Source of the DNA: Paraspadella gotoi
Lineage: Eukaryota > Animalia > Chaetognatha
Direction: 5' to 3'
DNA length: 64,000 nucleotides
NCBI GenBank assembly: GCA_051294375.1
Contig: CM119271.1
Span: 5,569,991 to 5,633,990 of the forward strand
The position numbers and the translations under genes were made by a program. Below, one piece after another: positions 9,301 to 62,639 of this stretch. The notes under the pieces are model-generated. The model was not told the origin of the DNA. It did no database searches and worked only from the letters and a program-made list of their open reading frames with translations. The stretch's first letter is position 1. Each line of letters opens with the position of its first letter.

Positions 9301-10409
9301 GTACTAACTTTCATTTAACTTTTCAAGCCCTATAAGAATCCATTCTTAAAAAATATTTTTTAAAAAAAAATTTTTTGTCATTTGTTATATATTAATAAAT
9401 ATTTAAAAGCTTTAGTGCAACAACCCAATGAACTAATTCAAAAAGGTGCATTAAAAATCGATTTAATAATAGAAGGAAAAAAGAAATTTTTTTGAGAGAA
9501 TTAGAAGTTATAAAAAGTGTTCAATTTTGGCCCGCCTTAGTACCCACTGCCTAGCATTATCCTATCTTTCCTGAAAAAAAACTGAAAAAGCAGGATTGGG
9601 TTTTGTTAAGACAATGGTCAATTTTAAAGGATAGTTAGTTTAAGCAAAATAGAGTGGTCAGTGCATCAGTGCAGTTTTTACAGAAAAAAAAAAAGTTCTA
9701 AAAGTGGGCAGATTCCTTAGCCTTCCTGAGTTTCCATCTAATGACATCTTAATATTTTCTGGTGGTGATTCATCACTGGAAAGGTATGGGAGCAGGAACC
9801 AAAGCTTTTATCAGTATTCGACTTAATGATGAAAAATCAGAATTGCTTTTGGATAAGGTTTTTTACTTTATGATGAATAATTGTTTCTCGCGAATTTTTT
9901 GTAATTGTCTGAAAAGCATTTTGAAAAAGTTTTACACATTTTTAGCATTGTTTTGGAATTTTAGGAAGATTTAGCAATGTTTTAATTAAAAATATAGTAT
10001 AATTATGAAAAGTATATGCAGGAAATAAATATTAATTACTATAACTTTAATATTATTTTAAAAAATTATTTAACGCTTAGTTACTAAATAATCATCAAAA
10101 TATTTCATTATTAAAAAACGTGTAACTTTATAAAATATACTATTAGAAAGTAAATACAGACCTCATTTCTTCCAAATTAGTCCCTGCCAACCGGGCCGCT
10201 TTCTCGTAAGCCGCCGCGGCTTTGACGAGCCTGGCTTTGGAGATCACAGGACTAAGGCCTTTTTCGACGCCGCGCGTGAAGTCTTCGTTGCCCTCGAGCC
10301 GACATTTGACCGACGGGGAAATCGACGACGAAGACGACGAAGAAGACGACGAAGAAGACGACGAAGAAGACGACGACGAAGAAGACGACGAAGAAGACGA
10401 CGTTTCCAT
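6390..10409 (-). CDS. Helical TPR-like protein (~489 aa) with N-terminal poly-Ser and C-terminal J-domain-like helix pair
   Basis: Eight phase-consistent GT-AG exons: 10162-10409, 8213-8453, 7872-8073, 7577-7771, 7302-7402, 7077-7235, 6660-6794, 6390-6578. TPR-like motifs GNEDF...YEKAA, NKNLGVTY, EAIACHYLGYIH; C-terminus KKTLLKIINDFQPEK...FAEKITQMLTFHYERLK. Confidence 0.85.
8750..9960 (+). pseudogene. Possible heavily decayed Tc1/mariner transposase relic, split by the hAT MITE
   Basis: Only faint traces of DDE-type motifs (W-V-x-x-DN near 9595-9620; a decayed FxW-like stretch near 9750-9790); no intact ORF. Confidence 0.25.
8928..9539. mobile_element. hAT-type MITE, family TAAGGCGG
   Basis: Ends TAGGCCGGAACAGG / GGCCCGCCTTA; exact 8-bp TSD GTACCCAC at 8920-8927 and 9540-9547. 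Confidence 0.9.
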
Positions 10410-10844
10410 TTTTACTTCATTGACGAAGAAATAAAATTTTTAGTTCCGGTTCTCTTAATTTCTATTCGATTGCGCAATATATTTTTTTTTTTTGGCGATC
10501 AATTCGCGCGTATTATTCTTATCGAGTTTGACGATAGGAGTTAAACGGTTAATCATCGACGAAAAAGAATTTTAACTGATCCGATTAATTTTTTGCAAAA
10601 TTAAAGGTTAATTTTGACATTTTCTAATTACAGTTGTTTGTTTTTTTGGCCCAAAAATCTTTTGTTTGCTTGGAGTATGATTGTTTTCCACCTGAGACGC
10701 TGTCAAATACTTGGTTTCTGCTCTTTGGCAGGATCGAGCAGCAGGATCGTGGCGCTCGAAAAACAAAGTTGTTTATACTTGGAGATTTTACCTTAGCAGC
10801 CGGATCGTGGGGTAAAAGAATAGAGAAGCAAAGACCGTATTATT

Positions 10845-11405
10845 AACAGCAGGATTGGATTGATTGGCTCTCAAGTATTTTTTACTGCAGGATTAATTTT
10901 CGTGGCAGGAATAAAAAAAAAATGGGCTAAATTTTACTTTCGCCGACCGCGGTTATGGCGGCTTTTAAAAAAACTATTTTAAAATATTTATTTTTTTTTT
11001 TAAATTTAAAAAAAATATTACGTAATTACCCAAACTTTTTTAACCTTAACTACACCTAACCCTAAACTACCTTTAAATCACCTTTAACCCTAACCCCTCC
11101 CTAACCCCGGTCGGCGAAAGTAAATGTAACCCAAAAAAGGCTTGGTGGGATTTTTCTAGGCAGGAATGACTTTTTGCTGGCAGGATCAGTCATTTTTCGA
11201 ACAAAGGTTGAGGAAATATTAGCAGGATTTTTTTCTCACTGCACAAAATACAAATAATTCCCTTTTAAGTTTTTAGTAAAATAGTCCTGCTGGGAGAGAT
11301 TAATCTTGCTATGAGAAAAAAATCCTGCTAATAAGTTTTTTTACGCTTTTGTTCGAAAAATGACCGAACCTGCCAGCGAAAAATCATTCCTGCCATGAAA
11401 ATTCC
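10845..11405. mobile_element. GCAGGA-repeat foldback element(s) with a nested MITE (10924-11133) containing (CCTAAC)-like repeats
   Basis: GCAGGA motifs invert to TCCTGC. Inner TIR TTTACTTTCGCCGACCG / CGGTCGGCGAAAGTAAA; a related end occurs near 47520-47712. Confidence 0.6.
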
Positions 11406-11419
11406 TCTTTAACTAAGGA

Positions 11420-11520
11420 TAGCCTCACTCAATGGGGTGAGTCAAAAATTTAGAATGATTACATGCTCAATACGAAAATTTATACATTTTGAAGTATACT
11501 TTCAATGGACAAAACATTTC
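11420..11520. repeat. Dispersed repeat (probable transposon end), second copy inverted at ~51850-51948
   Basis: About 100 bp near-identical: CAATGGGGTGAGTCAAAAATTTAGAATGATTACATGCTCAA...TTTCAATGGACAAAACATTT. Confidence 0.75.
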
Positions 11521-12837
11521 TTATGTGGCTCTATACCCAAATAATTATTTTTTTAATATTATTTATAAATAGAAAAGGCCAAAATTTTTTTTATAATTTT
11601 TAAATTTTAAGACCAGATTCGATAGCTCATAAAAAGTTGTCTACACAAAGTATAATTCTTTTTAAATATTTTCATGGTAAGTGAGTCAAAAATAAAAAAA
11701 ACCGTAAAAAATCATCATCATCATCATCTTTCGATGATTTATTCAGTTTTTTTATATTTTCACATAGAAAACATAAGAATTTTTAAAAGCTGTATTTATA
11801 TTTTCTTGTTTAACTTTTTATGCTCTATCAGAATCCATCAAAAAAATTTAAAGATTTAAAAAAAAAATTATAATGTAATTATAATGTAATTATTTTTTTG
11901 AAAATGATTGCTTAAATATTTAGTCAAAACAATTTTATATTATAACAGATTAATGGATAACGGTTAATCATCAATGAAAAATAATTTTAACTGATCGATT
12001 AATTTGGTAAAATTAACGGTTAATTTTGACATTTACTAATTACAGTTTTTTTGTTTTTTTTTTTTGCCCAAAATTATTTTGTTTTCCCCGAGTACGATTG
12101 TTTTCAAATCAACAAAACAAAAATCTTTGTTTCCTAAAGTCCGCTTCAGGAACCAAGACCAAGAGTTAAGAACGCGGTTGTGTTCTCAAATAGAATTTTA
12201 ACCATGAATGACGATAAAGTCAAAAAAATGTATTTATTATTTATTTAATTTTATTTCTTTGAAACTGGCGAGCTTTACGGAAGATACCCTAGAGCCAAGG
12301 GATCTAAAATTTTCAAATTATTTTAAAATAATTCTTAATTTGACCTGAATAATCAATGCAGATAATGAAGCACCGACGACCATTAGATTCAGTGTATCGA
12401 GTAAAAAGAGGTTCACTGTTTTTCCTGTCTAATTTGAACAATCGATAAAAGGATTCAACCTTCGTTTCATTTCAAAACTAAGAAATTGGTTGAACTTGGA
12501 AATAAAAATAATAGGGAATATTTGCAAGATTTTTTATTATTTCTGTTGGTTAAGTTACAATACATCATAATCGTAACAAACAATAATTTACGGCTTCATG
12601 AAGAGGGCAGCCAAAATTACTAAGAAAAGCTAAAATACACATTTCACAAGATCGATCAAAGTTTCAAAGTATGTTTTTAAATCTATATTGAACTAGACGG
12701 TTCTCGTTGTACCAGAAAAATAGGTTTATTATAGCAGGGCAAGTATTCACGAAACGTCAAATAACAAAATAAAATTATATATTTGTTTTCGTATAATAAA
12801 GTCTTGATAGATTTGAATAACCTACATATTACATAAT

Positions 12838-13375: not shown

Positions 13376-28931
<15,556 letters not shown>

Positions 28932-34319: not shown

Positions 34320-34740
34320 TAAGGCGGAACAGGTAACTGAAGTCCGGTATAAATATTGTTAATGTGTTTATTAAAGATCGTGAAAATAAAATAAAAAATT
34401 AAGATTTATCTTATAGTTAAACGCATGGATGCTATTTTATATTATCCAAATACTATAAAATATTATTTTTTTTTGTAATAAATTTTAATTTTTTTTAACG
34501 GATTCTGATAGAGCTTGAAAAGTTTGGAGATTTTAATGATTTATCTATAAAAATTAATAAAAACTATAAAAAACTTAAGCATTTTTATATATTGTTAAAT
34601 ATTAAAATGCTTCCATGCATGAGGAAAATTAGTTTAATCAAAATCTAACATCATAAGTCAATTTGGTTGTAAAATGACAAAAGGCTTTTATCGCAGACTT
34701 TTTCATATTGTAAAAAAATGTTAAATCCTGGCCCGCCTTA
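34320..34740. mobile_element. hAT-type MITE, family TAAGGCGG
   Basis: TAAGGCGGAACAGG / CCTGGCCCGCCTTA; exact 8-bp TSD ATATACAT at 34312-34319 and 34741-34748. Confidence 0.92.
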
Positions 34741-35496: not shown

Positions 35497-38400
35497 ATGA
35501 CGGAACTAAGCGCCAAACAAGACTCCCCGGGATTCTGGGCCTCGCGGTTTCAAACGAGCCAATTCTCCTTTAGCCATCACGGCTTCTCTCTCATGAACGC
35601 AGCGCACAGTTCCGTCACCTGGATCTTTTGGTTTTCCTTCACCGTTCTCACCACGGTGCCGATGGTGTGGTACATACAAGTAAGTTAATTGATTTTGTCC
35701 GTCAATCGCCTATATTATATCTTTTCTGCTTATCAATGGTAATCTACGGTCGGGTCAATCCCAAAAACGAGAAATTTTATTATAAAATTTGAATCTTATT
35801 ATCGTAACCTAATCAAAAATATTCGAAATGCATGCTTGAAATACTACTAGAATTAAATGAATATTTTTGTTTTGTTTACCGACAGAAGAAAAACCTGTTT
35901 CTGTTTCTTCTCTGAAAATAAAACAAATTCGTTGTCTGTCAACAAAATAAAAATTTTCATTTGATTTTAATTTCAATCTCTTAAGAACATGGAAATACTC
36001 CATACAAAAACTCCCCTTGTAAAAGAGATCCCTGACGGCGTTCGTCGAATTCAACGTCAACACGCGGTTTGAGAATCGAGAGCTGCTCCATCCGCCGTTG
36101 CCAGTCGTCACCCTCTGTCCCAAATCGCCCTTCAAGAAGCAAGAGTTCGTCCGGTTCCTTCAAGACTTCAACGAGACAGACGAGAAGTGGCGGAGATTTC
36201 CGAGCGAGGCTTTGGATTTTGTCAAGGGCGCTGCCGATATGGTACTGCATGGAAAAGGAAGGTCGGTTGAGTAATGAGTATGTTCCGTTTTCTTCGGTAA
36301 GATTTAGGGCTTATTTTGTTTAATATTGATGTAGAGTAGAGCGTTCAAAGATAACAAAATATAAGATATTTAATTTCAATCATTATTGTTTTAATGTAAT
36401 AAGGTCTGAAGAATTCGATGATAATAACCATTTTTTGGTAAAGTTTCATCTTCCTTGTCGCCAGTGGCGATTTTTGAAGCATATAAGGTGCTATTAAAAT
36501 GGCGTATCCATTGTAGAGTATGAGAAACTAAAATTATTAAAATTTTATAAAGGTCATATTTAGCTTATATAATATGAAAATAAAGACCCATAAAAATATT
36601 TTGGTAAGTTTATTTACAAATTTTATATTTTATTAACAGCTTGTTAACTATATTTATATATTTATATTTATAACTATAGTTAAAAATAGGCTAAAGTGAA
36701 AAAATAAATATTTTGAAATTTTAAAACCGGATTTGAATTCCTTGCAAAAAGTTGATAAAAGGAAGTAAAATCCATTTTAACAAATTCTTTTATTAAGTTG
36801 GTTAAAAATGTTAAAAACTATGATTTTTGTTTAATTTTATTATTTTTGGCTTAAAATTATAGTTTTTTAAAATTTTGACTAACTTAATGACATAATTTTT
36901 TAATAAAAATTCTATTTTCTTATATCAACTTTTTGCAAGGAATGCGAATCCGGGATAAAAATTTTAAAATTTTAATTTTTTAACTTTAGCCTAATTTTTA
37001 TTCATAATTATTAATAAATATAGCTAACTAACTATTAATAAAACATAAAATTGAGAAATAAACTTACCAAAATATTTTTATAGTTCTTTATTTTTATATT
37101 TCAAAAGCTCATGTAATTTAAAAAAAAATTAATAATTTGATTTATCATAACTTATAATGTTTTCCCTATTTTATTAGCATTTTATATACATTAAAAATCG
37201 TCATTTCCGACAAGAAAGATGAAATTATACAAAAAAATGGTCATCACCATCGAATTCTTCAGACCTTATTACAGTAAAACAATTATGAATGGAATTTAAT
37301 ATTTTATATTTTGTTATATTTGAACGCTCTAATGTAGAGATAGAAAATGTTGTTTACATAAGAACCACGCAGGAACACGCCTGTTAAATTCTATGCAGCA
37401 TCGCAGAGGTAAAATCCGTCGGAACCAGAATGGAACTCTCCTATTGGTCAAGAGACAAATGGCACCGGCCAATGAGCTGATTGGCTTCCATCCGCCAGTG
37501 ATTTTTACCCTTACCCCCGATCCGTTCACACTGTATAAATATGCACCAAAATTGTATTGATTCACTCTGCCTGGAAATTGACAGTCTTCTGAGAATAAAA
37601 TTCCACTCTGGTATCGCCGAAAAATCCCTGTCTACTTATTTAAATGTGGTGGCAGCCGTGAGATTTGAACCCACGCCTTCGAAGATTGGGAATTTAAACT
37701 TAGTTCATAATTACCGGAGGTTTTGGTATTCCTTTCTTCTTTAAAGCCACCAATGAGGCGAGAACCCCAGACCTCTTGGTTAGAAGAGAGCGTGCTCTTT
37801 TTTGTTCCAAAAGGCGAAAGGAGAGAGTGACTAGTGTCAAGTTGTCACCTTTTGTCCCTAGAAGTGTTTATAGCCCTCAAATCATGGCTTTGAGTTAACC
37901 GTTTACTTTTTCAGTTGCCTTACTTTCTGAAGTCTGGTAAGTTCTCAATCCTTTTTCGTCTTTTATGTTAAAGAAAATACCTTAACCCAAGTAAATATCA
38001 AAACAAAAACAGAAAACAAATAAAAACACAAAGATAAGTTACACAGTTTAACATAATACCAAACATTAGTTAAAACTAGCCTCTTCACGATATCTTTTAT
38101 AGGCTATAGCACGAGAGCAATGACTCCTAGTTTCCAATCTAAAATTACTTTTCTATTTTAAACCAGGAACTTTGAACTAAACCCCATGATGTTCATGCCA
38201 CACTTGTTTCACTATTATCCTGAGCTTCACCGGAATATCTCATGGACCTGCGAAGATCTGACTCATAGACTTATCTACAATGACGTTACGATTGCTGAGA
38301 ATAACGTATGTAAGGAATGGAAAACTCTTCCTCACGCATATTTCGGGACATGTTTTCAGTTTAATTCTAATCAGGTAAAAAAATCAAAGGAAAACCTAAA

Positions 38401-40628
38401 ACAACACAACACAAAGCCTATACTATCTATTAGTTCTTTTTTTTAACTAAACAGAAGTATGTCAAAAAAAATAAAACAACATTACAAATTCGGAGTTATA
38501 AAATTTTAACCCAGGAAAACTTATTTAAACAAATAGAGTTTTTTAAAGAATTTAAGCGGCATTTTGGAAGCTTTTCAAAGCTGATACTTTCTTACTTAGC
38601 AATACTTAGTAAATGCATAGCTCAGCCATTCTATATTCTTAAGTATACATTCTGTTCTCTATTCAATATTAATCTAAACTTCATTTAACAAGCCAAAAAT
38701 GCATGTAAAAATGTAATATTTGAAATCATTAAAAAATAATATAAAAATTATGTTCATGTTTCCCAGAAAGCAATTGCTTACGGCCCGGGAACTTTATTTG
38801 GAATCAAAATTTTCCTTTCAATGTCCGAAAAAGATTTCATAGACGTTTTCGATTACTGGTCTACCTGGAGTGGCTTCAGAATTTTGTTGTCAAGGTAACT
38901 CTAAGGTTAAGGTGTGGTACTCGTACAAAATTTTAATTTTTTTTTGTTGTTGTTGTCAAGCAATGAGACAAACATCCAGTTGATCGAAGAAGGTCGCGAC
39001 ATTGGCCTCGGACAAATGGTCCAGTTCGCTCTCAAAAAAGAAAGAATTCTGAAAACGACTTTGTATCCTTGGACTAAATGCAGGACCGATTATCCAGATC
39101 ACCTTAAGAGTTGGCAGAGAACGTTCGGAATCAAGGTCTATACCAAGAGAACTTGCTACAAACTTTGCTTCATTCGTTATTTGGTAGAGAAAGCTTCATG
39201 CTTTCCGTTCATTGATGTTGTCTGGACACCGATGGGGCAGATCTACTCGGATATTCCATCGTGCGACCACGACGATTTAAAAATCGACTACAACACTGTT
39301 TAGTGAGTTTCGTGTGAGGTTTTTTTTTTTTTTCAGACTGCTTTCCAAAATATATTTGAACTTTAATACATACATTATACTTACTCCAATTAACTGAACT
39401 GAACTTTTTCGTTTAATTTTTTGTTTTGAAATCCCAATTTAAAAAGCAAAATCTTGGACAAAGACTGCGGAGATTTTTGCAAATCCGAGTGTCATTGGGA
39501 AGTTTGGAAACAAGAAGTGATCACGGAAAATATCCCTCCCAAACTCGAGAACAGAAAAGTATGACCTCATGAAATTAATTTTGGAGCAAGCCGTTTTACA
39601 TTCTCGGTCGTCAACATATTTTACCGGTTGTTGCAACATATTCGCCCTGTTGGAGTCCATAATAAGTCCTTGCAGAGACAGTAATTAAGTTATGTGTTAG
39701 TGACAGAACCGTTTAATATGCCACAAATATAAGCAGTCCCTGAGATTCGGATCAGGTTGTAAAACCGTGTTAGAGGCGGGCTAAAGCGCCCCGTCGCTCT
39801 TAACTGCGAGGCGACCACCGGGATAGAACCCCGGACCTTTGGGTTGGGAGGCAAATGACTTGCCTCCTGCAGCAATGACCGTTAATGAACAGTTGATAGA
39901 TTTTAGTCCACCATACCCTTTACAATGGACAATGAACAAAAAAAAATAATATATTATGGCAACGGGAGGATAGCCTGTGATACCCGGGGCGCGGGGTATC
40001 TCACCAACTGGCGTAGGGGCTGCGGACCCTCAGTGACCGCCTCCTGTCACTGGCATGTTTATACCGGCACCGTCACATTTAAGCCAGAACCGGGATACCC
40101 GGGGATTGAACCCGGGACGCACGGATGGAATGAGATGATTTAGCCTGCTCAGCCATTGAGACGAGGCTGAGGACGGACAGCAGTGAGGCAGCTTTAAGTC
40201 TTGCTGCCACAATATCATTGTTAGGGAAGCATAGCAAGCTGGAAGTTAATAAATCTGACTGTGAGATAGTGTTGATTGACCGCTATGTCAAGAGCCGTCT
40301 TGTCAGAGAGATGTAGGTCTTACCCCACTATTGACTGTCAATTTACAAGGATCTGTTTTGAAGTTGGTAAAATAATAATTATCCATTCACGTAATTAAGA
40401 TTAGTTTTTATCTTCTTAGATATGCTCGAAACTCTGATAACGGAGAGTCCTGCCAAGCTGCCTGAGGATGTCATTGGCGAGGTTGGCGGCCAGCTTGGGC
40501 TCTGGTGCGGGATGTCGATCATGACCATCTTCGAACTCATCTTCATCTGCTTCTTCTGCGGATTCCATCGGACTCGAGCCAAAGTGACATCAGTTTCCGA
40601 TGAGAATGAAGTTTCTCATGAGCAATGA
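35497..40628 (+). CDS. DEG/ENaC family sodium channel subunit (frame lesion in the penultimate exon; possible pseudogene or assembly error)
   Basis: Exons 35497-35679, 36026-36261, 38167-38374, 38767-38894, 38961-39302, 39447-39626, 40420-40628. Motifs SHHG+TM1, LPVVTLC, FGTCFQFN, YTKRTCYKLC, CKSEC, GEVGGQLGLWCGMSIMTIFE (TM2, GxS filter). Confidence 0.88.
36337..37331. mobile_element. hAT-type foldback MITE (TAGAGCG...CGCTCTA), ~1 kb almost entirely palindromic
   Basis: Long inverted arms; exact 8-bp TSD ATGTAGAG at 36329-36336 and 37332-37339. Confidence 0.92.
37348..37690 (+). mobile_element. LTR with extended tRNA-Leu primer-binding site
   Basis: Starts TGTTGTT; CCAAT boxes, TATAAATA, AATAAA; then TGGTGGCAGCCGTGAGATTTGAACCCACGCCTTCGAAGA from 37647, the complement of a tRNA-Leu 3' half including CCA. 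Confidence 0.75.
39695..39915 (-). mobile_element. Second family of tRNA-carrying LTR-like element (TATGGTGG...TAACA)
   Basis: B-box-like GGTTCTATCCC and CTCCCAA loop on the minus strand; homologous deleted copy at 53913-~54086 (+). No TSD found. Confidence 0.6.
39955..40211 (-). mobile_element. 257-bp tRNA-carrying solo LTR (Helenus-like TRIM), copy A
   Basis: TGTGGCA...TGCCATA ends, 4-bp TSD ATAT (39951-39954, 40212-40215), internal A and B boxes; near-identical to 46441-46697. Confidence 0.85.
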
Positions 40629-46440: not shown

Positions 46441-46697
46441 TGTGGCAGCAAGACTTAAAGCTGCCTCACTGCTGTCCGTCCTCATCCTCGTCTCAATGGC
46501 TGAGCAGGCTAAATCATCTCATTCCATCCGTGCGTCCCGGGTTCAATCCCTGGGTATCCCGGTTCTGGCTTAAATGTGACGGTGCCGGTATAAACATGCC
46601 AGTGACAGGAGGCGGTCACTGAGGGTCCGCAGCCCCTACGCCAGTTGGTGAGATACCCCGCGCCCCGGGTATCACAGGCTATCCTCCCGTTGCCATA
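46441..46697 (+). mobile_element. 257-bp tRNA-carrying solo LTR (Helenus-like TRIM), copy B
   Basis: TGTGGCA...TGCCATA; 4-bp TSD GGAG (46437-46440, 46698-46701); A box TGGCTGAGCAGG 46497-46508; B box GGTTCAATCCC 46540-46550. Confidence 0.85.
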
Positions 46698-47230: not shown

Positions 47231-48637
47231 TCGGGAGAAGAGCGGGAGTTTAACCTGGAGGTCTCTCTATACAAGATTTCTCAGTGCGCCACCTCCAGTC
47301 GCGCGGCTTTTTCGGATCCCTTTTCGATCTCTTTTTCGAATGCTTTACGGCTGCCCTTACGGTTTTATTACGCGAATTCTTTATGGTTCTAAACAATTGG
47401 ATATTTGCTTATTTTGAACGTTTATACTTCGTTATTCTATGTTTATATTACAACAATATATGAAGCTAAACTGTAAAATACGTCTACAATGCTTAAAGTC
47501 ATACAAAGTGTTGGATTATTTTTACATTCGCCGACCAGGATTTTGCGGTCGGTTATTTGTTTTTCGCTTCTTATGAGCGATGTATAGAAATCTCATTACG
47601 CAAAAATAAATGACACTGCTAAAGGTAAAAAATCTTTATATCACAAATTACATTTCGAAACCTCCCCTAACCCTAACTACCCTTAATCCCTAACCCTAAC
47701 CACCCCTAACCCAATTGCTTACCATTTAAAAAATATAACATAAAAATATTATTTTTTTTCCTTTCATTTTGGTTATTTGTTTAAGGTAAAAAATAAATTG
47801 TTTATGTAAGAGTTTTATTTAGAAATATAAATTTTGCAAAAACGAAATATAATTTTCTCCAAAACGAATTGATTAGTGAAACAAATATTTTCACAAAGTT
47901 TGAAGAGAGAGTCTGTAAAAATATTTGTTTCACAAATCAATTCGTTTTTGCACCGATGAAGGCTTACATTGAAATCCGAAATTTATGTTTCTTAATAAAA
48001 CTCGTACATCAACAAACAATTCATTTTTTACCTCAAACATAAAAATATCAATAAAATAAATTTAAAACAATTATTATTTATTATAAAAGTAAAAAATTTA
48101 GATATTAATTTGCAAGCTAAGACTCGACGCTAGAGAGAAAACAAAATTAAATGGATTAACAAAGCACCGACCGCTGGTACCTCAAGTTGGTTGCGGACGT
48201 CGAATAGTTTTTATATAAAAACAGCGCGACGACGACGACGACACAAAGAAGCAATCCTGAATGATTATAGTATGATAAAAATAAAAATTGTGACTAGATC
48301 CCTCGATACTCGACAGTCCACATTAGAGGTTTGTGCAAAAGAAAAACCTTCCGAATACTGTTTTTGAAATAGTAATCGTAAACCAACATAAAAAATATAC
48401 CAACCTTGACAAAAATACATGGCAAGGAGCAAAACCCATTAGCTAATTTCAATGTGTTGGCACAAGGTATAACTCACGATTTAGCGGTTTGCACTTTTAA
48501 AGTGACCAAAAAAAGTGAGAGAACATCGTAGTACAAATAATAGTAAAAGTATTCAATAGTATCAAAAAAATAAAAAAATACACCAGTCGTAAATCACATT
48601 TTTGAAATCCTACCACGAAAGCCAGATATTTCTGTCC

Positions 48638-51368
48638 TCAATTCTGGCTGCTCTCGAAGTACATGAAGTCGATGAGCATGAGGGCGCCGAGCAGCGAGGC
48701 TTTGAGTTTGACGTCGAGGTCGAGCGGAAACGTGATGCCAAAGTGGTCGGCGTCGGTGTAGGCCTCGCGGAAGCAACCCGTCCACTAAAGCGTAGTAAAA
48801 ATTCGAAATTTAACTTTAATTCAAATTCTAAAAGTGAGGAACGAACATCTTTATACTAATGAACATTTATGTATAAAAAAATTTATAATTAATTTTACAA
48901 TTTACGCAATAGGCTATATTTAATATTATTTATAGTTATTTATAGTAGTACTAATCCAATAAATGTTAAAATTTCAAAATCACTTTTTGTCAGATTTTTT
49001 TGGAGATTTGGATTCGTCATGAAAAGTTGATATAAAGAAATATAACTCTTTTAAAAATGTTTTCATTAAGCTGGTCAAATATAAAAAAAAACCTGTTATT
49101 TGTTTCAGAGTTATGATTTTGGCAGGAGATTTAATAGTTAAATAATAATAATTATTTGGTCTTTTCATGTCAATAATATAAAAAAAGAAAACAAATTATT
49201 TCTGTAGATAACATGATTTTTATTTAAGTATAAGCACTGATCTTCAGAGACTTCTGTCTCCCTCAAAGGTTCATAACAAATTGAGACACAAAATTTACAA
49301 AACAGTTTTTGGTGATGTTTCTACTATTCCATTTGGCTGAAAATCCATTCTCCTAAATCTGGCCATTTCTTCTATTCTCTGCCTTTGAATTCAATAAGCT
49401 TGTTTTCAGAATCTGAACATAAGAATTATGTAAGAGAAAACAAAATAAAAGATTCTGCTATCTTAGAACACCTTTTTGAATGCACTAATACCTGTCAATT
49501 TCCTGACCCAGGGGTTATTTGGGATGAATGTAAAATATTAGAACAAGAAAATAACAAATTAAAAAGATTGTAAATAGAAATGAAAAATTTTATATATAAT
49601 TTTAGCCTACTTAATGAAAGAATTGTTAAAAATGATTAATATTTTCTTTTATCAACTTTTGACAAGGAATTCAAATCTTCAATTAAAATTAAGAAAAGCT
49701 TATTTTGAAATTTTTCGATTTTATAAGGATAGTACTATATATAGCCTACTATAGCCTATTGCAAAAATTGAAGAACATAAAATTAATTTTTAAATTTTTT
49801 TTACTATTTATGTTCACTGATTGTACAAGGTGACACACGACAGCACGCCGCAAAAAAAATCGTCATTTGCAAACTTGTGAAGATTTTTTTAATCTGAATT
49901 TTTTTTGTAATAAAATACTAAATCATTTATATATCCAAATTTTATATTGATTGGTTTTGATTTTTAAAAGGTAGCCTTCCAAATCGTTTTTCATTTTAAA
50001 ACTCCATTTTTTTTTAATCTGTTTTTTACAAGAGCTTTCAGAAGATATTAATATTGATACCTTTTAATGTAAAAGTTCTTTAAAAAATGTTCATAAAGTT
50101 AAACAAAAAGATTGAAAAAAAAAGATTTGTTTTAAAATGAAACACGATTTTTAAATCAACTTTTTCCGGGTCACTTTTTCCAAGTCAAATCATAACCAAT
50201 CAATATGAAATTTGGATATATAAATGATTTAGGTTTTTACTACAGAAAAAATCTTTCAGATAAAAAAAAATCTTTACAAGTTTGCAAATGACGATTTTTT
50301 TTAGCGGCGGGCTGTCGTGTGTCACCTTGTACGTTGTTCAAAATTGACATTTAGAATTTTCGTATGTAACTTTCACCAAGCTCTACCTTCCACTGTTTCG
50401 TCACTGATCCGATCTTGTTCTTTTCGCTTAGGTCCAGAACCTTGAAAAGGGAGAATATATGGGAAAAGGATGAAAGGGTGGTAAAGGGGGAAAAGAAAAG
50501 AAGGTGGGAAAGAGGATAAGAATGAGAAGGAAATATTAATGTGGAAGAAAAAATGGAGATGAAGATTATCCAGGAAATTTACCCAATCAAGTCAGGAGTA
50601 AAAAAATGTCAGCGTGAGCAACTAACTAAATACTCAATAAGTGAATATAGCTAAATCGTATCATTTCATTTTCATTTTCAACCTGGAACTCGACGTCGGT
50701 GCACCAGATGATGTGGCAGCAGGGCCCGACAATCTTGAGCATCGGAGTCTTCTTGTCGGCGCCGTAAACGGTGAACTTGGGAATGCAGAAAGTTGGATCC
50801 TGTTTGACGAAGCCGATGATCTTACCCGGAGGGGATTCGATCTCAATTTCCTGTTAAAGTGAGCGAGGGGAAAGGAAAGGGACAAAGGGAGGGAAGAAAA
50901 AGAGTGAATTAAAAACCTTGGTGATTAAGGGAAAAAATCTTAAAAGCATAAAAATCGTCGCAATTGCATAAGAAAAATCGGGATTGACGACAAATTTTGA
51001 TACTAAAAAAAATCAAATGAGACCCTCCTAGGCTGTGACTGGATGCGTCACTGAGGGTCGGAAGCCCCCAAAGCCAACAAACAATTTTTTTTTTATGTCA
51101 CCTTCTCGCTCTCTGTAAAGAATAGTCGTACGTTTACTGAATAGCAGTATTGCACTGCATAGTCGTAATAGCGCTGCTTACGGCGTCGTCAATATTTGTT
51201 TATTTGAGTTGTCTAGTTACTGAAACCTTCACTACCGTTCTTGAGGCGCCGTAAGACGATTCGACGTCACGAGTTTTTGAAACTAAAGATTAATTTGAGG
51301 AAAAACGTAAAAATCCCTAACTGCCCAAAAGAGTTTGAACGCGCTCTCTTCGTGATTCGTCGAAAACC

Positions 51369-51435
<67 letters not shown>

Positions 51436-54400
51436 CAATTGCGACGATCCTTATGCTTTTAAGATTTTAAGAAAAGTGCATTCCGCTTTTCCCTTTAGCG
51501 TAGTTCAAACCTATTAAATAAAAATAATTATTAAGGCGAGTGATTTTTTTTAATATTAAAAAATTATAACTTTTTAAACGATATTCTTTTTTTTTTAAAT
51601 TCTTTCAGCAAAACAAAAGCAATTATCTCTTTATTGAATTCGGCATAATTTTTTTAAAAATCTTTCACAAACCTTGTTAAAAATATCATTTTTTAAAAGT
51701 TTTATTAAAAATATCCTGAAACAATAGGTTTTCAAAAAATTTTACTTGGTAAAAAACTAACTTAATTTATAATGCCAGGTATGTAACATAGTCAATTTTT
51801 CCACTCTACTTCTCTATTTTTTCTACTCTACTTCCACTCCACATAAAAAAATGTTTTGTCCATTGAAAGTATACTTCAAAATGTATAAATTTTCGTTTGA
51901 GCATGTAATCATTCTAAATTTTTGACTCACCCCATTGAATGGGGCTACCCCTACTACAAGATAGATTGGGTTTCGTCCCTGTAGTAAGAAATATTTAAAA
52001 GATATTTATCAAAAAGTCAATTATTTAGAATTTTTTAAATTTTTTTCAGAGTTGGCAGCATTTACTGTAAAAATCTTTTGAAAAAAATGTTCAAAAAATT
52101 CATATGATGTATGGGCATCTTTACCAATACTCGTTTTTGATTTAAAAACTTTTCATGCATGGAAAGGTCTACTCATTATGTCTGCATTAGAACTCTGACT
52201 TTGGTTGTGCAATGTTAGTAAGAAAAAGATAGGTGAACTCAAAAAGTTGTGAGGTTGTCCTCAATATTGCAGTAAATTTAAGTCCTTACTAAACCCTCGT
52301 CTGAGAAGAACCTCTGCCCTAGACGCTTCGGCCACGAAAGAATGGTTCAATTGCTTATTAAAAAAAATCTTATTCTTTTTTCATAAAAAAAAATAAATAA
52401 TGACACTTCTTCCCTTGATATCTTTGGCGAATGTTATCCTTCTCATTTAAAATTTTAATAGCAGGAAGATATTACTTTTTCAAAGTTAGTTTTAAATTTT
52501 TTTTTCAATACATGGACCTTATCATTTTTTATAAGGTTTTGCAAAAGGGATGATTTTCTTAATTTTTACAAATGTATGAGTCTGTAAAACATGAACAAGA
52601 AATCAAATTTTAAAAACAAAAATAGATTTGGAATCAGCATGATGTCCGCTTTCAAACCCTTTATAGTTTTTAAATATTTTAATTAGTTTTAAAACTATAA
52701 CATATTTTTATAATATTGAAAAAATATTTTTGGTATTTAAAATAATTTTTAAAAATTTTATTTGTTATTTAATAAAAGTGATCTTGTTCAATGTATCATT
52801 TTGTATAAAAAAAGAATCAATTACCTTGGATATTTACAGTATACTTTTGAATATTATTTTGACTAAATTAATTATTAAAACAAAAAAAATTAAATTAATT
52901 CAAAAATTGTATTACATCATTATGTAGGCCTCGTCTCGGAGTATTTATGAGCAAAAAATGATGGGGCAAGCTTCATTAACAACTGCGCAATTTTTTGGAA
53001 TTTTTAAAAATTCGCCAAATGGGGACACAAGCTAACCTTCCTGCATCTATTACTCATAGCTGAGCTGATTCCAACTCCTAGTTTGAGAGATATCCACTCC
53101 CTCCAGTTTATCGAGTAAAGAAAAAAGTTCAAAGAGAAAAGAGAGAGAGAAGGAGACATAAAAATAAAAGAGAAGAAATTTGTTTGTTTTGATAAAACGT
53201 AAACAAAACATATTTAATAATTGTCCTCACCCAATTTCAAGGACCTCGATGATGAGAAGCTGTATATAAATTTTCAGCTTCATACACCCAAATTTAATCA
53301 TAAAAAAGGCGATCTATAATTTGAAACGCCGACGACGACGACGACGACGACCCCTACGCCACTTATGCACGAAAGCATTACAATATCGTCGCAAACGCAA
53401 AGCGATTGCGACGATAAAAAGAAAAATCGGAAACTTACCATTTGGCAGCAGCCGCCGCACCAGCTCCAAGGACTACACCGGTAAGGTCGGTAAAAGTGCA
53501 TGACTTCCCGTTCGTTGTTGTCGGTAACCTTCATATCAAACGGGCGGGCTGGACCGCAAACCTGCCTGATATAAAATAAATAACAAATAAGAATATTTGA
53601 ATACGGTCGCTACCATGATGGAAAATTAAACTGTTGCGGTTACTTTCCGGATATTTTTAAGCATTTTAATATAAAATATAAAAATCGAAAAATAAAATTT
53701 AGATGTTGAGTAACTTTGGCCTCTTGTGATTCATTAAAAATACCTGCCTTTTCTCAGTCTCATATCAAATGGTTATTGCATTATTTCTATTAGGATAGAT
53801 TCAGGGATGAATCTATCATAATTTTAATTTATTTATTTATTCTAATCTTAATTTATATGTTAATAAAAAATGTTATTAAAAATACATTGATGCTGTAGAT
53901 GCTCTAGAATATTATGGTGGACTAAAATCCACCAACCGTTCATCAGCGGCCATTGGTGCCGGAGGCAAGTCATTCGCCTCCTAGCAGTTAAGAGGGACGG
54001 GGCGCTTAACGCGCCTGTAACACGGTGTTACAGCCTGATCGGAAGCTCAGGGACTGCTTATATTGAAAGGTTCTGTTTTTTACCATTTTTTACCCCAAAC
54101 GGTGTTCATGCCGGCGTTCTCGGCTCCACCAAAGTTCGCCTCTTGTTCAGCAAAACGATTCAACGTGATGACGGCATTCTCCTCATTCCCGACGCTCTGT
54201 CGTTTCGGCCTTGCTCCGATTCGCCAGGTCCCTGGAACAGAAGCCTGTCCTCGATGCCTTTCTCCCTTCCAGCAATGCCACCGGTCATCTCTGCGTTTCC
54301 CCCTGTTGACACTCCTGGGCCACAATGCCCATTGCCCACGGCTCCCGCGCCGGGTGTCGCCATCGCCCTTCCTACCGTTGGTGCCTCCGAGGAGACAGTG

Positions 54401-55276
54401 AAGGGGCACTGCCATTGGGCTTCCGAGCGTGTTTTCCTACATTACACTAAACCCCACCGCGTCTCTCGTTCGTTGCGCGAGGCCGTTACCTCCGACTTTT
54501 CCTGCAATCGTTTCCACCGCCCTTCCCTTTGGTCTCTCGCCTCCTGAGCCACTACTTTTGGTTAGGTTTGGGTGTGTCCTCTGTGTCCCCGCATGTGTCG
54601 TGTACTCAAGGTCATGCGGTCGTTCTCATGGTCTCTACCCACTACTAAACCAGGTGAGTCCAGCGAGTGGTCGCGGTGAATAGGTCACTATTTACCGGCC
54701 AAAAAATATATTTGACAATTAAATTAACTGACTTTTCTAAACCGCGACAGTTTTTTTTTTTCATCAAGGTATTTTACTACAAAATCAATAACCAACTGCC
54801 AAACGCAATTTTTTACCTTGTGCAACAATTCACATCTTCCTTCACGTAATAAACCTGCTGACCCTTCGAATTCTGGACTTTGAAATTATTCTTCATATCA
54901 CATCCAGTGATTAACTCGAAAACATTCACCTTTTGCTTCACTAGAATTTGATCCATGAGGGTCAAATACTCCAGACCTGAAAAGAATATCGAAATCTGAC
55001 AGGTGAGATGATATTTTTGACGGAGCTGGGCCAAAGGAAAATGAATCGAAGGAAAGAAGGTGTTTCCTACCTGGTGGACAGTTGGGCGGCGCCAGCAAAG
55101 GTGCCGGCATCCAGTTTTGAGCGCCTGACGTGATGGAAGAAAGAGTTAAATCGTGTGTTATGAACGGGTAAGGAATGACTTTCATTGAACTTACTGGGTT
55201 GAACTTGCACAGCATCCGGTTGGGTGAACTGCGCTCCGTACTGCCCTGGTTGAGCCACAACAGGGCGATTTCCCAT
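48638..55276 (-). CDS. PLSCR: Phospholipid scramblase (~263 aa)
   Basis: Seven phase-consistent exons: 55195-55276, 55071-55124, 54817-54976, 53439-53565, 50683-50850, 50387-50440, 48638-48784. Motifs [55 protein letters not shown]. Confidence 0.95.
49400..49580 (+). mobile_element. Penelope-like element GIY-YIG endonuclease C-terminal fragment
   Basis: [12 protein letters not shown]...[17 protein letters not shown] matches the SAxxEH...WD..KIL..E.N..KR pattern of PLE endonucleases. Confidence 0.7.
49826..50329. mobile_element. TA-flanked foldback MITE (Tc1/mariner type)
   Basis: CAAGGTGACACACGACAGC...GCTGTCGTGTGTCACCTTG with long inverted arms and TA on both sides. Confidence 0.85.
50935..51468. 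mobile_element. MITE-like element with ~35-bp inverted ends
   Basis: AAAATCTTAAAAGCATAAAAATCGTCGCAATTG / CAATTGCGACGATCCTTATGCTTTTAAGATTTT; the same end motif occurs near 42580 and 58500. Confidence 0.6.
53913..54690. mobile_element. Deleted tRNA-LTR-like copy (53913-~54086) abutting a GC-rich, probably retroelement-derived segment
   Basis: Homology to 39695-39915; the following ~600 bp are GC-rich inside an AT-rich intron, with no recognisable domain. Confidence 0.4.
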
Positions 55277-55379: not shown

Positions 55380-55891
55380 TTAAAATTGCTCTCTGATAAA
55401 CTCAGGACTGCAAAAAGAAAACGTAAGTAGTATAAAAAACAAAACGAGAGGGACGAAAGTGAAATCAAAACGGAATGACTTTCCCCCGTCCCAACCCAAA
55501 TAAGATCCAGAGTCGTCCAGCGTGAGTCCGTCGACGATCGACATCAATCGCTTGACCGAATATTCCGTAGTGAAGATTTTATCTTCGGGAAGATTCTTGC
55601 GGTAGGGCGAGGTGAGATCAGTGTCCACTGTTCCAGGGTGAAGGGCGACGCAGACAACCTTCCGAGATCCGTGGCTCAACTCGATGCTAAGGTTCTTCGT
55701 CGCCATATTTAGCGCTGGAGATGAATAGAAAAGCAAGTGAGGATAGACAAACTCACCTGCTTTGGACTTCCTGTAGCTATACCATCCGCCGAAACCGTTG
55801 TCGCCGATGCTGCCGACCCTGGCCGATACATTAACCAATATGAGCCTTTTTGCAGAAGAGGAGCCAACAGTGGCGTTGGTCGTGCAATGAT
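55380..55891 (-). CDS. CsgA/C-factor-like short-chain dehydrogenase/reductase, 3' exons
   Basis: NVSARVGSIGDNGFGGWYSYRKSKA-ALNM (YxxxK), ALHPGTVDTDL, GSYLGWDG; 42-nt intron 55715-55756. Candidate upstream exon ~57966-58036. No GxxxGxG N-terminus found in the window. Confidence 0.85.
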
Positions 55892-56186
55892 CTAATAAGC
55901 AACGACTAAGTCGTAGAATCTATTGAACTAAAAATCCAAATCTTGACCAATTTTAACATTCTAAAGAAGTTTGCCCGCTAACTGAAAATAATAAAAGAAT
56001 AAAAGAATCTAGAAAAAATTGGACATAAGGCAGGGGCGAATGAACATAGGGAGCTAAATATCTCTAACTGAATGACTGACTATTAAAATTATTAATGATT
56101 TTCGGTTAACTAACTTCGGGCATTACTAAAAATTCTCACGCATGTTTTTCAAAATTCTTAGGTCGAAGTGCGAAAGCCGGTTGAAC

Positions 56187-58863: not shown

Positions 58864-60219
58864 AATCCAACGATCACGCAAGAGATCGTACAGAGAGAGA
58901 CAGACACACACAGAGAGAGACAGAGAGAGACGGAGAGAGACGGAGGCAGATAGAGAAAGAGCCTGATTCAGAAAAGGCAGCGCCTGATGAAAAAAGAAAG
59001 AAAGATATATATAATTTAAAGAAATAAAAGAAAGGAAAAAAGTTACAATTGTATACAATTGGAAATTGTTACAACTTTTTCCAATCATAGCTTGTATAAG
59101 ATTTTATTTTTATTTGTATTAAAATTAAGATATAGTTTCTCATTAAAAAGGTCTTTTGATTTCACATGTTTATTATAGATTTAAAGATTTTTTTATGAAT
59201 TTCATCTTCAATATTATTTACTGCAATATGTAAATTAGATTAAAGCATTTCTATATTCAAATTTGGATATTATAATGAGTACTATAATCTCATTTGCATA
59301 TTGCAGTAAAAATGGTAAGTCCCAGCCAAAACTATAAAAGCGTAGTAGTTTTTATATAAAAATGCGTGATGCCAATGACGACGACGTCACAAAGAAGCTT
59401 ACCCAAAACAATATCGAGCCTGAACCGGCTTTGCCGGTAGGCTCGATAATAGTTTTAGTTTATTTTTTTTTTATCTTGCCAAGGAATCTTGGCGAGATAA
59501 TGCGAAAGGGATGCTTCTTTGTGATCATCGTCGTCGTCGTCATCGTCGTTGTCGGCGTCACGCTGTTATTCTATAAAAACTACTACGCTTTTATAGTTTT
59601 GACTGGGACTTACAGTTTTTTTTTAAATAAAAAAAAATATGAATTACGATGAATTTTTATAAAAGTGTGCGATCATAGTAAGTTAAAAATTTAGATATGG
59701 CTTCTCATTTTGAAATAGCTTTGAAATTTTCATATTACATTTTGATTCAAGTATTTTTTGTGTGAATTTCTACTTCATTATGATTTACTGCAATATGCAA
59801 ATGAGATTATAGTACTCATTATTAAATCCAAATTAGTATATAGAAATACTTTAATCTAATTTACATATTGCAGTAAATAATATTGAAGATGAAAGTCATA
59901 AAAAAATCTTTAAATCTATAATAAACATGTGAAATCAAAAGACCTTTTTAATGAGAAACTATATCTTAATTTTAATACAAATAAAAATAAAATCTTTTAC
60001 AAGCTATGATTGGAAAAAGTTATAACAATTTCCAATTGTAAACAATTGTAACTTTTTTGCCTTTCTTTTATTTCTTCAAATTATATATATCTTTCTTTCT
60101 TTTTTATCAGGCGCTGCTTTTCTGAATCAGGCTCTTTCTCTATCTGTCTCCGTCTCTCTCCGTCTCTCTCTGTGTGTGTCTGTCTCTCTCTGTACGATCT
60201 CTTGCGTGATCGTTGGATT
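58864..60219. repeat. Large inverted duplication (~440-bp arms) enclosing a smaller inverted pair
   Basis: 58864-~59310 is the near-perfect reverse complement of ~59785-60219; inner pair ~59316-59356 / ~59572-59612. Confidence 0.9.
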
Positions 60220-60873: not shown

Positions 60874-62639
60874 TAATCTCCCTTTCCACTCCGCCCTTCA
60901 TCTCGAAAATTAAACCTTTGCTTTTGCTTTAAATCTTCCTTTATTGCGTCGCGTTGGCAACAGAGATGCGTACTAGGAGGTCGTCGTCGTCGTCGTCGTC
61001 GTCGTTTCTTTCCTTGGAAACCGAAAATTGATTATTCGGGCTCCTCGCAGAGAAAACTCCTTTTTTTTTCGAAATTTCCTTTTATCACAAAGGAATGAGG
61101 TTCCGCGCACTGAAGTTGACGTTTTCAAAGAAAAATAAATTTAAAGTGTTGAATAAATCAGTCTTTTTGTATTTGTTATCTTCATTCCTTAGTAATTGTT
61201 CAATCGAGTCTCGTTTTTTAGTTTTTATGATTTTTATAATTTAGTTTTAAAATAAAAAAATATAGGGGGAAAAAGATTGTGTTTTTTTGACATATTATAG
61301 AGACGCATCATTGTAGGTTTGGTGGCGTTCCGATCTTTCTTCTCCGAAAAGCGTCCATCCAGGATTCTCACGTGAAATCGCCATTGTCACCATGGAAACG
61401 GCTCGAAGAATTTTTAGCCAATCACAATTTGATAAAAATCTTAAATTTACCCTCCAGCTATTGATTTTTGGAAAGATGTCTCGTTTTTGAGTATCCCAAT
61501 TAAATTAAAGCTGGGCCGGTTAAATTTTATATTACAGTATTCGTAAGTACGTCATTCTCTTTAGATTAGAAAGGGCTTTCGGAAGATAACGATATTGATA
61601 TTATTTTATTTCAAATTTCTTCAGAAAACTTACTGAAAGTAAGAGAAAAAAATTAAATCTAAAAAAAGTGAGTTTAAAAATTAGAGACGATTTTCAAATC
61701 CATCTTCCTGCTATCATTGCTGAGGCATATCAATGTCGATTCTGATAAAATTTGCATATATAAATAGTTTGGGTTTTTACTTTTAAATTCATATTTAACA
61801 TTGAAAAAATCTTTATGGGTTTGCAAATGACAGCATTTTTTTACCGGCGCTTGTAAAATTGTCACCATGTATTTAGATGTTAGATATATTTTTAGGCTGT
61901 CCGTTGGGAAATGAACCTTGATTTGTTTTTTATATGAAAATGGTCCCCATAATTAAATAAAATTATTTCATTGGTTTTCCGAGCGTCGATTTCGTCCGCT
62001 CGTTAACGTCACCGTCTATTCTCTTTTCACGACTCGAATAAAGCTGAGCAATTCACAGATTCGCGTCATCACATGACTTTCACCTCAATCAGCGCCATCC
62101 GCCCCCGTCATTTCCCCACTCCCTCATTTTCCCCACTCCAGTTTGAACCCCCTGCACCTCGATTGGAGAATAAAACCGCGCGGTCATTCACCGGTTCTCT
62201 CTCTCTTAACTCACACAGGAGTGAATTAAAGCCTCGATGCGAATGAATGAAGGCGAACGCCCTCCCAGTCGACGCCGCCGACGCCGCTGCCTCCGCCGCC
62301 GCCGCCGCCGCCGCCACCGCCGCCCGATTTTTGAAAAGGCGGAGAGAGGGCGTGACGCGAATTCAGAAAACGGGTGGCGGCGCTGGTGGCAGCTGAGGTG
62401 GAGGGTTTCAGCGATGGCGGCGCCGTCGTCAGAAGGCCGCCGTGGTGGAGGATGGCGGAGGTGGCAGAGGATTTTAAAAAGTTTTGCCAATTATTAATAG
62501 TGGAAAACTAAATTCAGATTTAAGACTCAATTTAAAGAGTTTCCGAATCAGTTGGAAAACGGCGTCATCGTCTACAACTCTAATTGTCTGCAACTGGCGA
62601 CGCCGTTGATGACGCCCCGGCGGTCGATGAAGGGAGAAA

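What the first reader, a model, noticed from the sequence alone, without database searches (positions are those of the whole stretch)
48778..50393. A hAT transposon turned into an intron: both splice sites are TSD/TIR chimeras and splicing leaves an in-frame 2-codon footprint
Seen: on the coding strand the last scramblase intron (50386 to 48785) reads CA-GTGGAAG|G-TAGAGC......GCTTTA-G|TGGACGG. The 8-mers GTGGAAGG and GTGGACGG are a 7/8 direct repeat flanking a 1600-bp TA...TA segment with decayed TIRs (13/18), which resemble the TAGAGCG end of the intact hAT MITE at 36337. The donor GT is the last G of TSD1 plus the first T of the TIR; the acceptor AG is the last A of the TIR plus the first G of TSD2. 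Eight duplicated bases minus two leaves 6 nt, so the protein reads KQWKWTG where the scramblase family has K(Q/H)W(S/T)G. Known: hAT elements make 8-bp TSDs, and Introners co-opt TSD sequence for splice sites. Inference: any TA...TA hAT MITE landing in a G-N6-G target would be spliceable and frame-preserving, and the single TSD change (ACG to AAG) strengthens the donor. Three such MITE families occur in this window, so this could be a general intron-gain route in this animal.
Basis: partly seen in the sequence, partly recalled or inferred. Interest (0 to 1): 0.85.

Follow-up and report, generated by a model that had tools for sequence, protein, structure and literature searches.

The report
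Transposon spliced out as new intron
A mobile DNA element, likely of the hAT family, landed inside the coding part of an animal's scramblase gene and is cut out as a new intron in RNA-like sequencing runs, with each splice signal made half from the element's end and half from its duplicated landing site; it leaves two extra amino acids, and an uninterrupted copy of the gene still exists in the same species.

Summary
Confirmed, with direct evidence. The 1602-nt GT-AG intron (50386-48785, minus strand) is a 1600-bp TA…TA inverted-repeat element plus one base of each 8-bp target duplication. Three RNA-like runs (2 studies) join exactly at the predicted junction; 0 of 5 DNA-like runs do. Two DNA-like runs hold the empty site, lacking exactly 1608 bp and reading KQWTG like 13 of 13 close orthologs, so the two extra residues and the C-to-A change in the upstream duplication are derived. 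hAT membership is likely but unproven (no transposase seen). Whether the empty copy is an allele or a paralog is open. The genome-wide claim is untested: no genome is held, the window has one case, and the flank pattern alone is at chance level. Transposon introns with partly TSD-derived splice sites, added codons and hAT origin are published (Gozashti 2022, 2025); I did not find the double-chimera +6-nt geometry with an 8-bp TSD described. The scan noted two similar MITE introns on other DNA, without RNA support.

The parts
48785..50386 (-). Intron 6 of the scramblase gene, 1602 nt, GT..AG, phase 0
   Evidence: joint 48784-50387 in X9 and X7, X8
48786..50385 (.). Outer non-autonomous inverted-repeat element, TA..TA ends, 1600 bp (1094 bp without the nested element)
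   Evidence: loose contig ends of other copies run out at 50385 (table 7)
50386..50393 (-). Upstream TSD copy GTGGAAGG; its last G is donor +1; it carries the derived C-to-A change at donor -2
   Evidence: the empty-site joint 48780-50389 keeps the downstream version
48778..48785 (-). Downstream TSD copy GTGGACGG; its first G is the last base of the acceptor
49824..50331 (.). Nested 508-bp inverted-repeat element flanked by TA (Tc1/mariner-like MITE), likely a later insertion
   Evidence: other copies join 50329-50385 to sequence like that beyond 49823
49589..49816 (.). Inner part of the donor-side inverted arm
   Evidence: 67% over 235 columns to 48860-49091, E 1e-21
48860..49091 (.). Inner part of the acceptor-side inverted arm
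50387..50440 (-). Scramblase exon 6, ending KQWK
   Evidence: bridged in RNA-like contigs
48638..48784 (-). Scramblase exon 7 coding part, WTG to stop
   Evidence: Pfam PF03803 E 1.6e-17
48638..55276 (-). Whole scramblase gene model: 7 exons, 263 aa, open frame; exons 1-4 are a sequence model only
   Evidence: 73% identical to ortholog P0181
36337..37331 (.). Related intact MITE, TAGAGCG ends, perfect TSD ATGTAGAG
   Evidence: 67% over 214 columns to the intron element, E 7e-25
34320..34740 (.). TA..TA MITE with TAAGGCG ends, perfect TSD ATATACAT
19469..19898 (.). TA..TA MITE with TAGGCC ends, perfect TSD ATGATCAA

Best explanation
A repeated, non-coding inverted-repeat element, likely a hAT-family MITE, sits in the last coding exon of a scramblase gene between two copies of an 8-bp site and is removed at the predicted GT-AG junction in RNA-like runs, so one exon has become two and the protein gains two residues. 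Because the element starts and ends with TA and the site starts and ends with G, the donor is G(site)+T(element) and the acceptor is A(element)+G(site); splicing removes 1600+2 of the 1600+8 added bases and leaves 6 nt in frame. Shown: the geometry, the junction, the empty site, KQWTG in orthologs. Inferred: insertion by a hAT transposase acting in trans; later nesting of the TA-flanked MITE; that the C-to-A change helps the donor; that the two residues are tolerated because they fall in a short predicted loop.
For: Joint 48784-50387 (1602 skipped, CT..AC) in X9 and X7, X8: 3 of 3 runs that also skip intron 5 and have no depth inside it; absent from 5 of 5 runs that cover intron 5. In X7 and X8 one contig (991 and 935 nt; listed pieces with 0 differences) carries exons 5 to 7. 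Joint 48780-50389 (1608 skipped) in X1, X3 and X9 fixes the duplication at 8 bp. About 100 contigs per deep DNA run lie on the element's end region, and 30 contigs in X3 run out a median of 9 letters past 50376, which is the element's end. Arms reach both termini. 13 of 13 close orthologs read KQWTG; 166 of 171 scorable homologs have spacing 9 and none has the filled copy's 11. Three sister elements have 8-bp TSDs fitting nTnnnnAn, the hAT target motif (PMC3878927). The ortholog model puts W-T-G in a 3-residue loop between a strand and a helix.
Against: X7 and X8 are labelled 'DNA?' and X9 'RNA?' by the tool; I call them RNA from their intron skipping. Only contigs were available, so splicing efficiency and minor junctions are not measured. 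The empty joint was listed in 2 of 3 DNA-like runs (not X5) and in 0 of 4 runs (93% cut-off), though X2 and X6 carry the second copy's exon letters. The element's own target fits only half of nTnnnnAn. Arms of about 300 bp are longer than the 11-bp Ac/Ds TIR. No transposase was seen. Globally the element aligns only weakly to the 36337 MITE (107 against 62.6+-18.7).
Confidence: 0.88

Rival explanations
1. Same event, but the empty copy is a paralog or homeolog rather than an allele. The insertion then persisted because a second intact gene relaxed selection on this one, and it says little about gain of introns in single-copy genes. This rival concerns the context and is compatible with the best explanation.
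For: Both copies appear in 4 of 4 DNA samples. Of 8 listed coding differences 4 change a residue, and at these the empty copy matches close orthologs (Q 12/13, I 10/13, T 13/13, V 4/13 where L is 0/13), so the changes look derived in the filled copy.
Against: Sample S5 (X7, X8) shows only the filled copy's exon letters, as a homozygote would. One X9 contig at about the summed depth (647) crosses intron 5 with 51 letters a side, so the copies look identical around that junction. Only one scramblase gene lies in the window. Filled-to-empty depth varies from about 1:1 to 1:2, but two runs of one sample also differ, so depth cannot decide.
Confidence: 0.4
2. The element is a Mutator-like or foldback MITE rather than hAT; the splicing geometry is unchanged.
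For: Inverted arms of about 300 bp; long TIRs are typical of MULEs (recalled); own target fits nTnnnnAn only in half.
Against: TSD is exactly 8 bp. TA..TA ends with 8-bp TSD were the stated basis for a hAT call in Gozashti 2025 Dataset S2 (Fusarium fam2). 3 of 3 sister elements fit nTnnnnAn.
Confidence: 0.12
3. The intron arose by double-strand-break repair that captured a piece of repeat as filler DNA between short direct repeats.
For: Direct repeats flank introns gained by break repair (PMC3443670, passages).
Against: The insert begins and ends at the family's own termini, and its repeat length equals that of three sister elements.
Confidence: 0.03
4. The intron is old and the intron-less copy is a retrocopy or a product of intron loss.
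For: I could not obtain genomic loci of orthologs (one search found none), so intron absence in other species is untested.
Against: Exact intron loss would remove 1602 and keep the 6 nt; the empty copy lacks 1608. Its DNA contigs extend at least 62 letters from the joint, past the end of exon 6 into intron 5, and 0 of 5 DNA-like runs skip intron 5. Orthologs lack the two residues.
Confidence: 0.03

Closest known systems
hAT introners of Gozashti et al. 2025 Dataset S2 (PMC12130899): Panicum virgatum fam14, Styela clava fam1
   Same: hAT, 8-bp TSD, 'co-opt both'; the listed 5' splice position is the last base of the upstream TSD (29 and 28), as here.
   Different: Their 3' splice position is TSD base 7 (201 of 195-202; 2630 of 2624-2631), so by my arithmetic the net change is zero; here the acceptor ends at TSD base 1 and 6 nt remain. 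They are families of 12 and 6 introns; here one intron is known.
Trifolium repens fam4 and Fusarium oxysporum fam2 (same dataset)
   Same: Trifolium: 5' splice at the last TSD base and 3' splice at the first downstream TSD base, classed hAT. [quoted passage not shown]
   Different: Trifolium's automated TSD is 2 bp, so no footprint is implied. Fusarium's automated coordinates do not show the chimeric geometry. I could not check their sequences.
Introners of Gozashti et al. 2022 (PMC9860276): Florenciella and Aureococcus types
   Same: [quoted passage not shown]
   Different: Aureococcus carries both sites inside the element; median family lengths are 30-654 nt against 1.1-1.6 kb here.
Polarella glacialis introner-like elements, classes 9, 12 and 3 (bioRxiv 10.1101/2020.10.14.339549)
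   Same: Either splice site can span the element-TSD boundary; one class has an 8-nt TSD and works in both orientations.
   Different: Dinoflagellate with a relaxed GC/GA-tolerant spliceosome; here all six introns are GT-AG.
Drosophila sechellia Doc1053 intron (PMC3296678) and maize Ds introns (Giroux 1994, Dennis 1988; titles only)
   Same: Single transposon insertions that became introns; Doc1053 kept the frame and added five residues.
   Different: Doc is a retrotransposon. Ds is hAT in a plant; I saw only the titles of those papers.

Membership tests
Transposon-derived intron (introner mechanism) | Insertion in an exon that is removed by splicing | tested here: met
   Exact junction in 3 of 3 RNA-like runs, 0 of 5 DNA-like runs
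Transposon-derived intron (introner mechanism) | Empty site or orthologs without the insertion | tested here: met
   1608-bp skip in X1, X3, X9; KQWTG in 13 of 13 close orthologs
Transposon-derived intron (introner mechanism) | Intron ends coincide with element ends or TSD | tested here: met
Introner family | Several sequence-similar introns in unrelated genes | not testable with these tools
   No genome held; one case in the window; metagenome scan for the terminus found 0
hAT superfamily | 8-bp target site duplication | tested here: met
   Empty site lacks 1600+8; feature as stated in PMC3260210 and PMC3878927
hAT superfamily | Terminal inverted repeats starting (C/T)A as in Ac/Ds | tested here: met
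   TA at both ends, 13 of 18; Ac/Ds TIR
hAT superfamily | nTnnnnAn target preference | tested here: inconclusive
   3 of 3 sister elements fit; this element fits one of the two positions
hAT superfamily | hAT transposase in the element or in an autonomous partner with the same ends | not testable with these tools
   No ORF of 130 aa or more overlaps the element; no genome to search
Mutator-like element | Long TIRs | tested here: met
   Arms about 300 bp
Mutator-like element | Usual 9-11-bp TSD (recalled) | tested here: not met
   8 bp
U2-type spliceosomal intron | GT..AG ends with a pyrimidine-rich, AG-free 3' end | tested here: met
   Nearest upstream AG is 31 nt from the 3' end; branch point not mapped
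Tc1/mariner-like MITE (nested element) | TA duplication and inverted ends | tested here: met
   transposase not tested

The most novel reading that the evidence does not exclude
In this animal the abundant TA-ended hAT MITEs form an orientation-independent intron factory. Any G-N6-G coding site (46 of 782 sites in this gene, none creating a stop) yields a spliceable intron with a two-codon scar, and TAAG-ended subfamilies deliver a textbook GTAAG donor on arrival. Such introns are segregating now, so intron fixation and splice-site tuning can be watched within one animal species, and two-residue duplications at exon junctions would be a fossil mark of hAT-born introns across animals.
Probability: 0.2. 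Interest if true: 0.75.

Novelty: new variant of a known kind. Interest (0 to 1): 0.52.

Why it matters
Few intron gains in animals have the element, both target copies, the empty site and the spliced product all in hand; this one does. It shows that an ordinary, abundant MITE needs no built-in splice site: TA ends plus a G-N6-G target give GT-AG in frame. That is a simple rule that can be tested in any genome with TA-ended hAT elements, and screens built on families of similar introns would overlook single old copies like this. If the empty form is an allele, the locus allows a direct measure of the splicing cost and protein effect of a new intron.

Tried and rejected
No whole genome is held, so the genome-wide scan was not possible. 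No listed run is on record as RNA; RNA status was inferred. Ortholog loci in metagenome contigs: 101 stretches matched a pattern, none was confirmed. Element terminus in metagenome contigs: 0 matches. The G-N6-G flank pattern alone is not above chance (15 against 18.6), so it is rejected as a screen without TIR and RNA filters. Contig depth was rejected as a test of ploidy or allele status because X1 and X2, one sample, give different ratios. An apparent third haplotype in exon 7 is more simply a distant paralog piece (58 nt, 4 differences). The first fold (13 sequences, pLDDT 58.6) was too weak; the second (122 sequences, 84.4) is of ortholog P0181, not of the +2 protein. The PDB sequence search gave only weak VEGF matches, treated as spurious. 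The 39955/46697 inverted pair is not one transposon. Paper searches with zero results. Look-ups of earlier findings by place and by sequence were empty.

Full report
Observation. On the minus strand GTGGAAGG (50393-50386) and GTGGACGG (48785-48778) enclose exactly 1600 bp with TA at both ends; the 1602-nt intron uses the last G of the first repeat and the first G of the second. Both flanking exons tested match Pfam Scramblase. A seven-exon model gives an open 263-aa protein, 73% identical to the ortholog P0181; within the conserved domain the only gap is two residues at KQ--WTG, and the intron is phase 0. The flank pattern alone is common (15 hits against a shuffled mean of 18.6), but with a TIR match of at least 13 of 18 this is the only hit and 0 of 40 shuffles give one.

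The insert is one element. It holds a nested 508-bp TA-flanked inverted-repeat element (50331-49824) with a partial relative at 61571-61849. With that removed, the remaining 1094 bp align to their own reverse complement from end to end (364 against 50+-18 for 30 shuffles), best over about 300 bp at each end. It shares internal sequence with the intact MITE at 36337-37331 (67% over 214 columns, E 7e-25, low-complexity filter off), but the global alignment is weak (107 against 62.6+-18.7), so they are relatives, not one family. In public runs about 100 contigs per deep DNA run lie on the acceptor-side end region, and at the donor side 30 contigs of X3 run out a median of 9 letters past 50376, which is position 50385. 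Other copies join the donor-side end directly to sequence like that beyond 49823, so the nested element is likely a later arrival. The tool states that summed depth is not a copy number. Three further TA..TA elements in the window have perfect 8-bp duplications, all fitting nTnnnnAn, the hAT target motif given in PMC3878927 (passages).

Splicing. Nine runs of one organism hold the stretch; I laid 8 of 9. X9, X7 and X8 have no depth inside intron 5 and skip it at GT-AG, so I treat them as RNA although the tool labels X9 'RNA?' and X7, X8 'DNA?'. All 3 skip 48785-50386 exactly, with 51 letters on the shorter side; they come from 2 samples in 2 studies, neither being the study of the best DNA holder. 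0 of 5 DNA-like runs show this joint. In X7 and X8 a single contig carries exons 5 to 7, with no differences in its listed pieces. Contigs drop rare forms, so efficiency is not measured.

Empty site. X1, X3 and X9 hold a joint that skips 1608 bp, the element plus one 8-mer, and keeps the downstream version GTGGACGG. It was not listed for X5, nor for any of the 4 runs at a 93% cut-off, although X2, X5 and X6 carry the second copy's exon letters. The DNA contigs reach at least 62 letters from the joint, beyond exon 6, and no DNA-like run skips intron 5, so this is not a retrocopy. The empty form reads KQWTG, as do 13 of 13 close orthologs. Among 243 fetched proteins 171 could be scored: 166 have spacing 9 and none has the filled copy's 11. 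The duplication is therefore 8 bp, and the C-to-A change in the upstream copy is derived. It raises a simple U1 match count from 4.5 to 5.5, within the 5.5-7.5 of the gene's other five donors; whether it was selected is untested. The majority loose end of other copies reads TAAGGCG at this terminus, as does the 34320 element; after a G that gives GTAAG, so the donor may have been stronger at insertion and decayed since (inference; loose ends are biased toward copies that differ).

Allele or paralog. Both copies occur in 4 of 4 DNA samples and in X9; sample S5 shows only the filled one. Of 8 listed coding differences 4 are non-synonymous and the empty copy is closer to orthologs at these, which hints at relaxed selection on the filled copy. 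I put allele at about 0.6 and paralog or homeolog at 0.4.

Protein effect. The K-to-D segment is 13 residues in 118 of 122 homologs, 12 in 2, 15 in 1 and 17 in 1; the filled copy has 15. In a model of P0181 (pLDDT 84.4) W-T-G forms a 3-residue loop between strand 209-216 and helix 220-226, the least confident block of this region (about 69). Tolerance is plausible, not shown. From recall, this segment matches the atypical nuclear signal of human PLSCR1; one search confirms only that the family has such a signal.

Generality. 46 of 782 8-mers in this coding sequence are G-N6-G and none would create a stop; 12 fit the zero-footprint nnnnnAGG geometry. But 1 of 4 TA..TA elements in the window has such a target, no genome is held, and both metagenome scans were empty. 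The general claim is untested.

What is known. [quoted passage not shown] Gozashti 2025 (PMC12130899; passages, section 15, part 1 of Dataset S2 and 62 of its 63 'hAT' places) lists hAT introners, two with an 8-bp TSD and a donor at the last TSD base but net zero change (Panicum, the tunicate Styela), one with double-chimera coordinates and a 2-bp automated TSD (Trifolium), one with TA/TA ends and 8-bp TSD (Fusarium). The Polarella preprint (part 2 of 4) has both sites spanning the boundary. PMC3296678 (passages) has an in-frame fly case adding five residues. Also seen: PMC11282704 (part 2 of 5), PMC3443670, PMC3260210, PMC6104169 (passages); Giroux 1994 and Dennis 1988 as titles only. Searches aimed at the exact hAT +6 geometry returned nothing, and searches listed none by title or abstract start; the library lacks most subscription papers, and two supplement files of the 2025 paper and all supplements of the 2022 paper and the preprint were not seen, so absence is weak. 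Two earlier scan notes describe similar MITE introns in other genomes without RNA; they are not support.

Verdict. A real, well-evidenced intron gain from a hAT-like MITE in an unidentified animal; a new geometric variant of a known kind. Interest 0.52; it would rise to about 0.75 if the route proves genome-wide and segregating.

Noticed in passing
window 49824-50331 and 61571-61849: Nested TA-flanked Tc1/mariner-like MITE with a partial relative elsewhere in the window (70%, E 7e-38).
   Followed up: partly
window 50750-50823 and 48706: The insertion-bearing copy carries derived residue changes at positions conserved in orthologs (K151, V169, K175, L242), hinting at relaxed selection.
   Followed up: partly
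window 48710-48847: Filled-copy contigs of X5 and X6 differ from the window at 3 bases across the acceptor junction region, so the insertion haplotype itself varies between samples.
   Followed up: no
window 48568-48622: In the second gene copy 55 bases of 3' UTR are replaced by 148 other letters.
   Followed up: no
window 58864-60219: Large foldback structure with 94% arms (59015-59310 and 59784-60079) and outer arms; no obvious TSD seen.
   Followed up: partly
window 39955-40211 and 46441-46697: Two 99% identical 257-bp copies in opposite orientation, 6.2 kb apart, around what looks like the last exon of a DEG/ENaC-like channel gene (40395-40628; family name from recall, not scanned).
   Followed up: partly
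window 9099-11800: AT-rich inverted arms with weak similarity to the intron element's arms (E 1e-8 to 7e-5); ends not resolved.
   Followed up: no
window 53891-54700: GC-rich stretch inside scramblase intron 3 with a 218-aa stop-to-stop frame on the opposite strand; possibly a retroelement fragment.
   Followed up: no
window 55380-55919: Short-chain-dehydrogenase-like exons (label from recall) end about 200 bp upstream of the scramblase start on the same strand.
   Followed up: no
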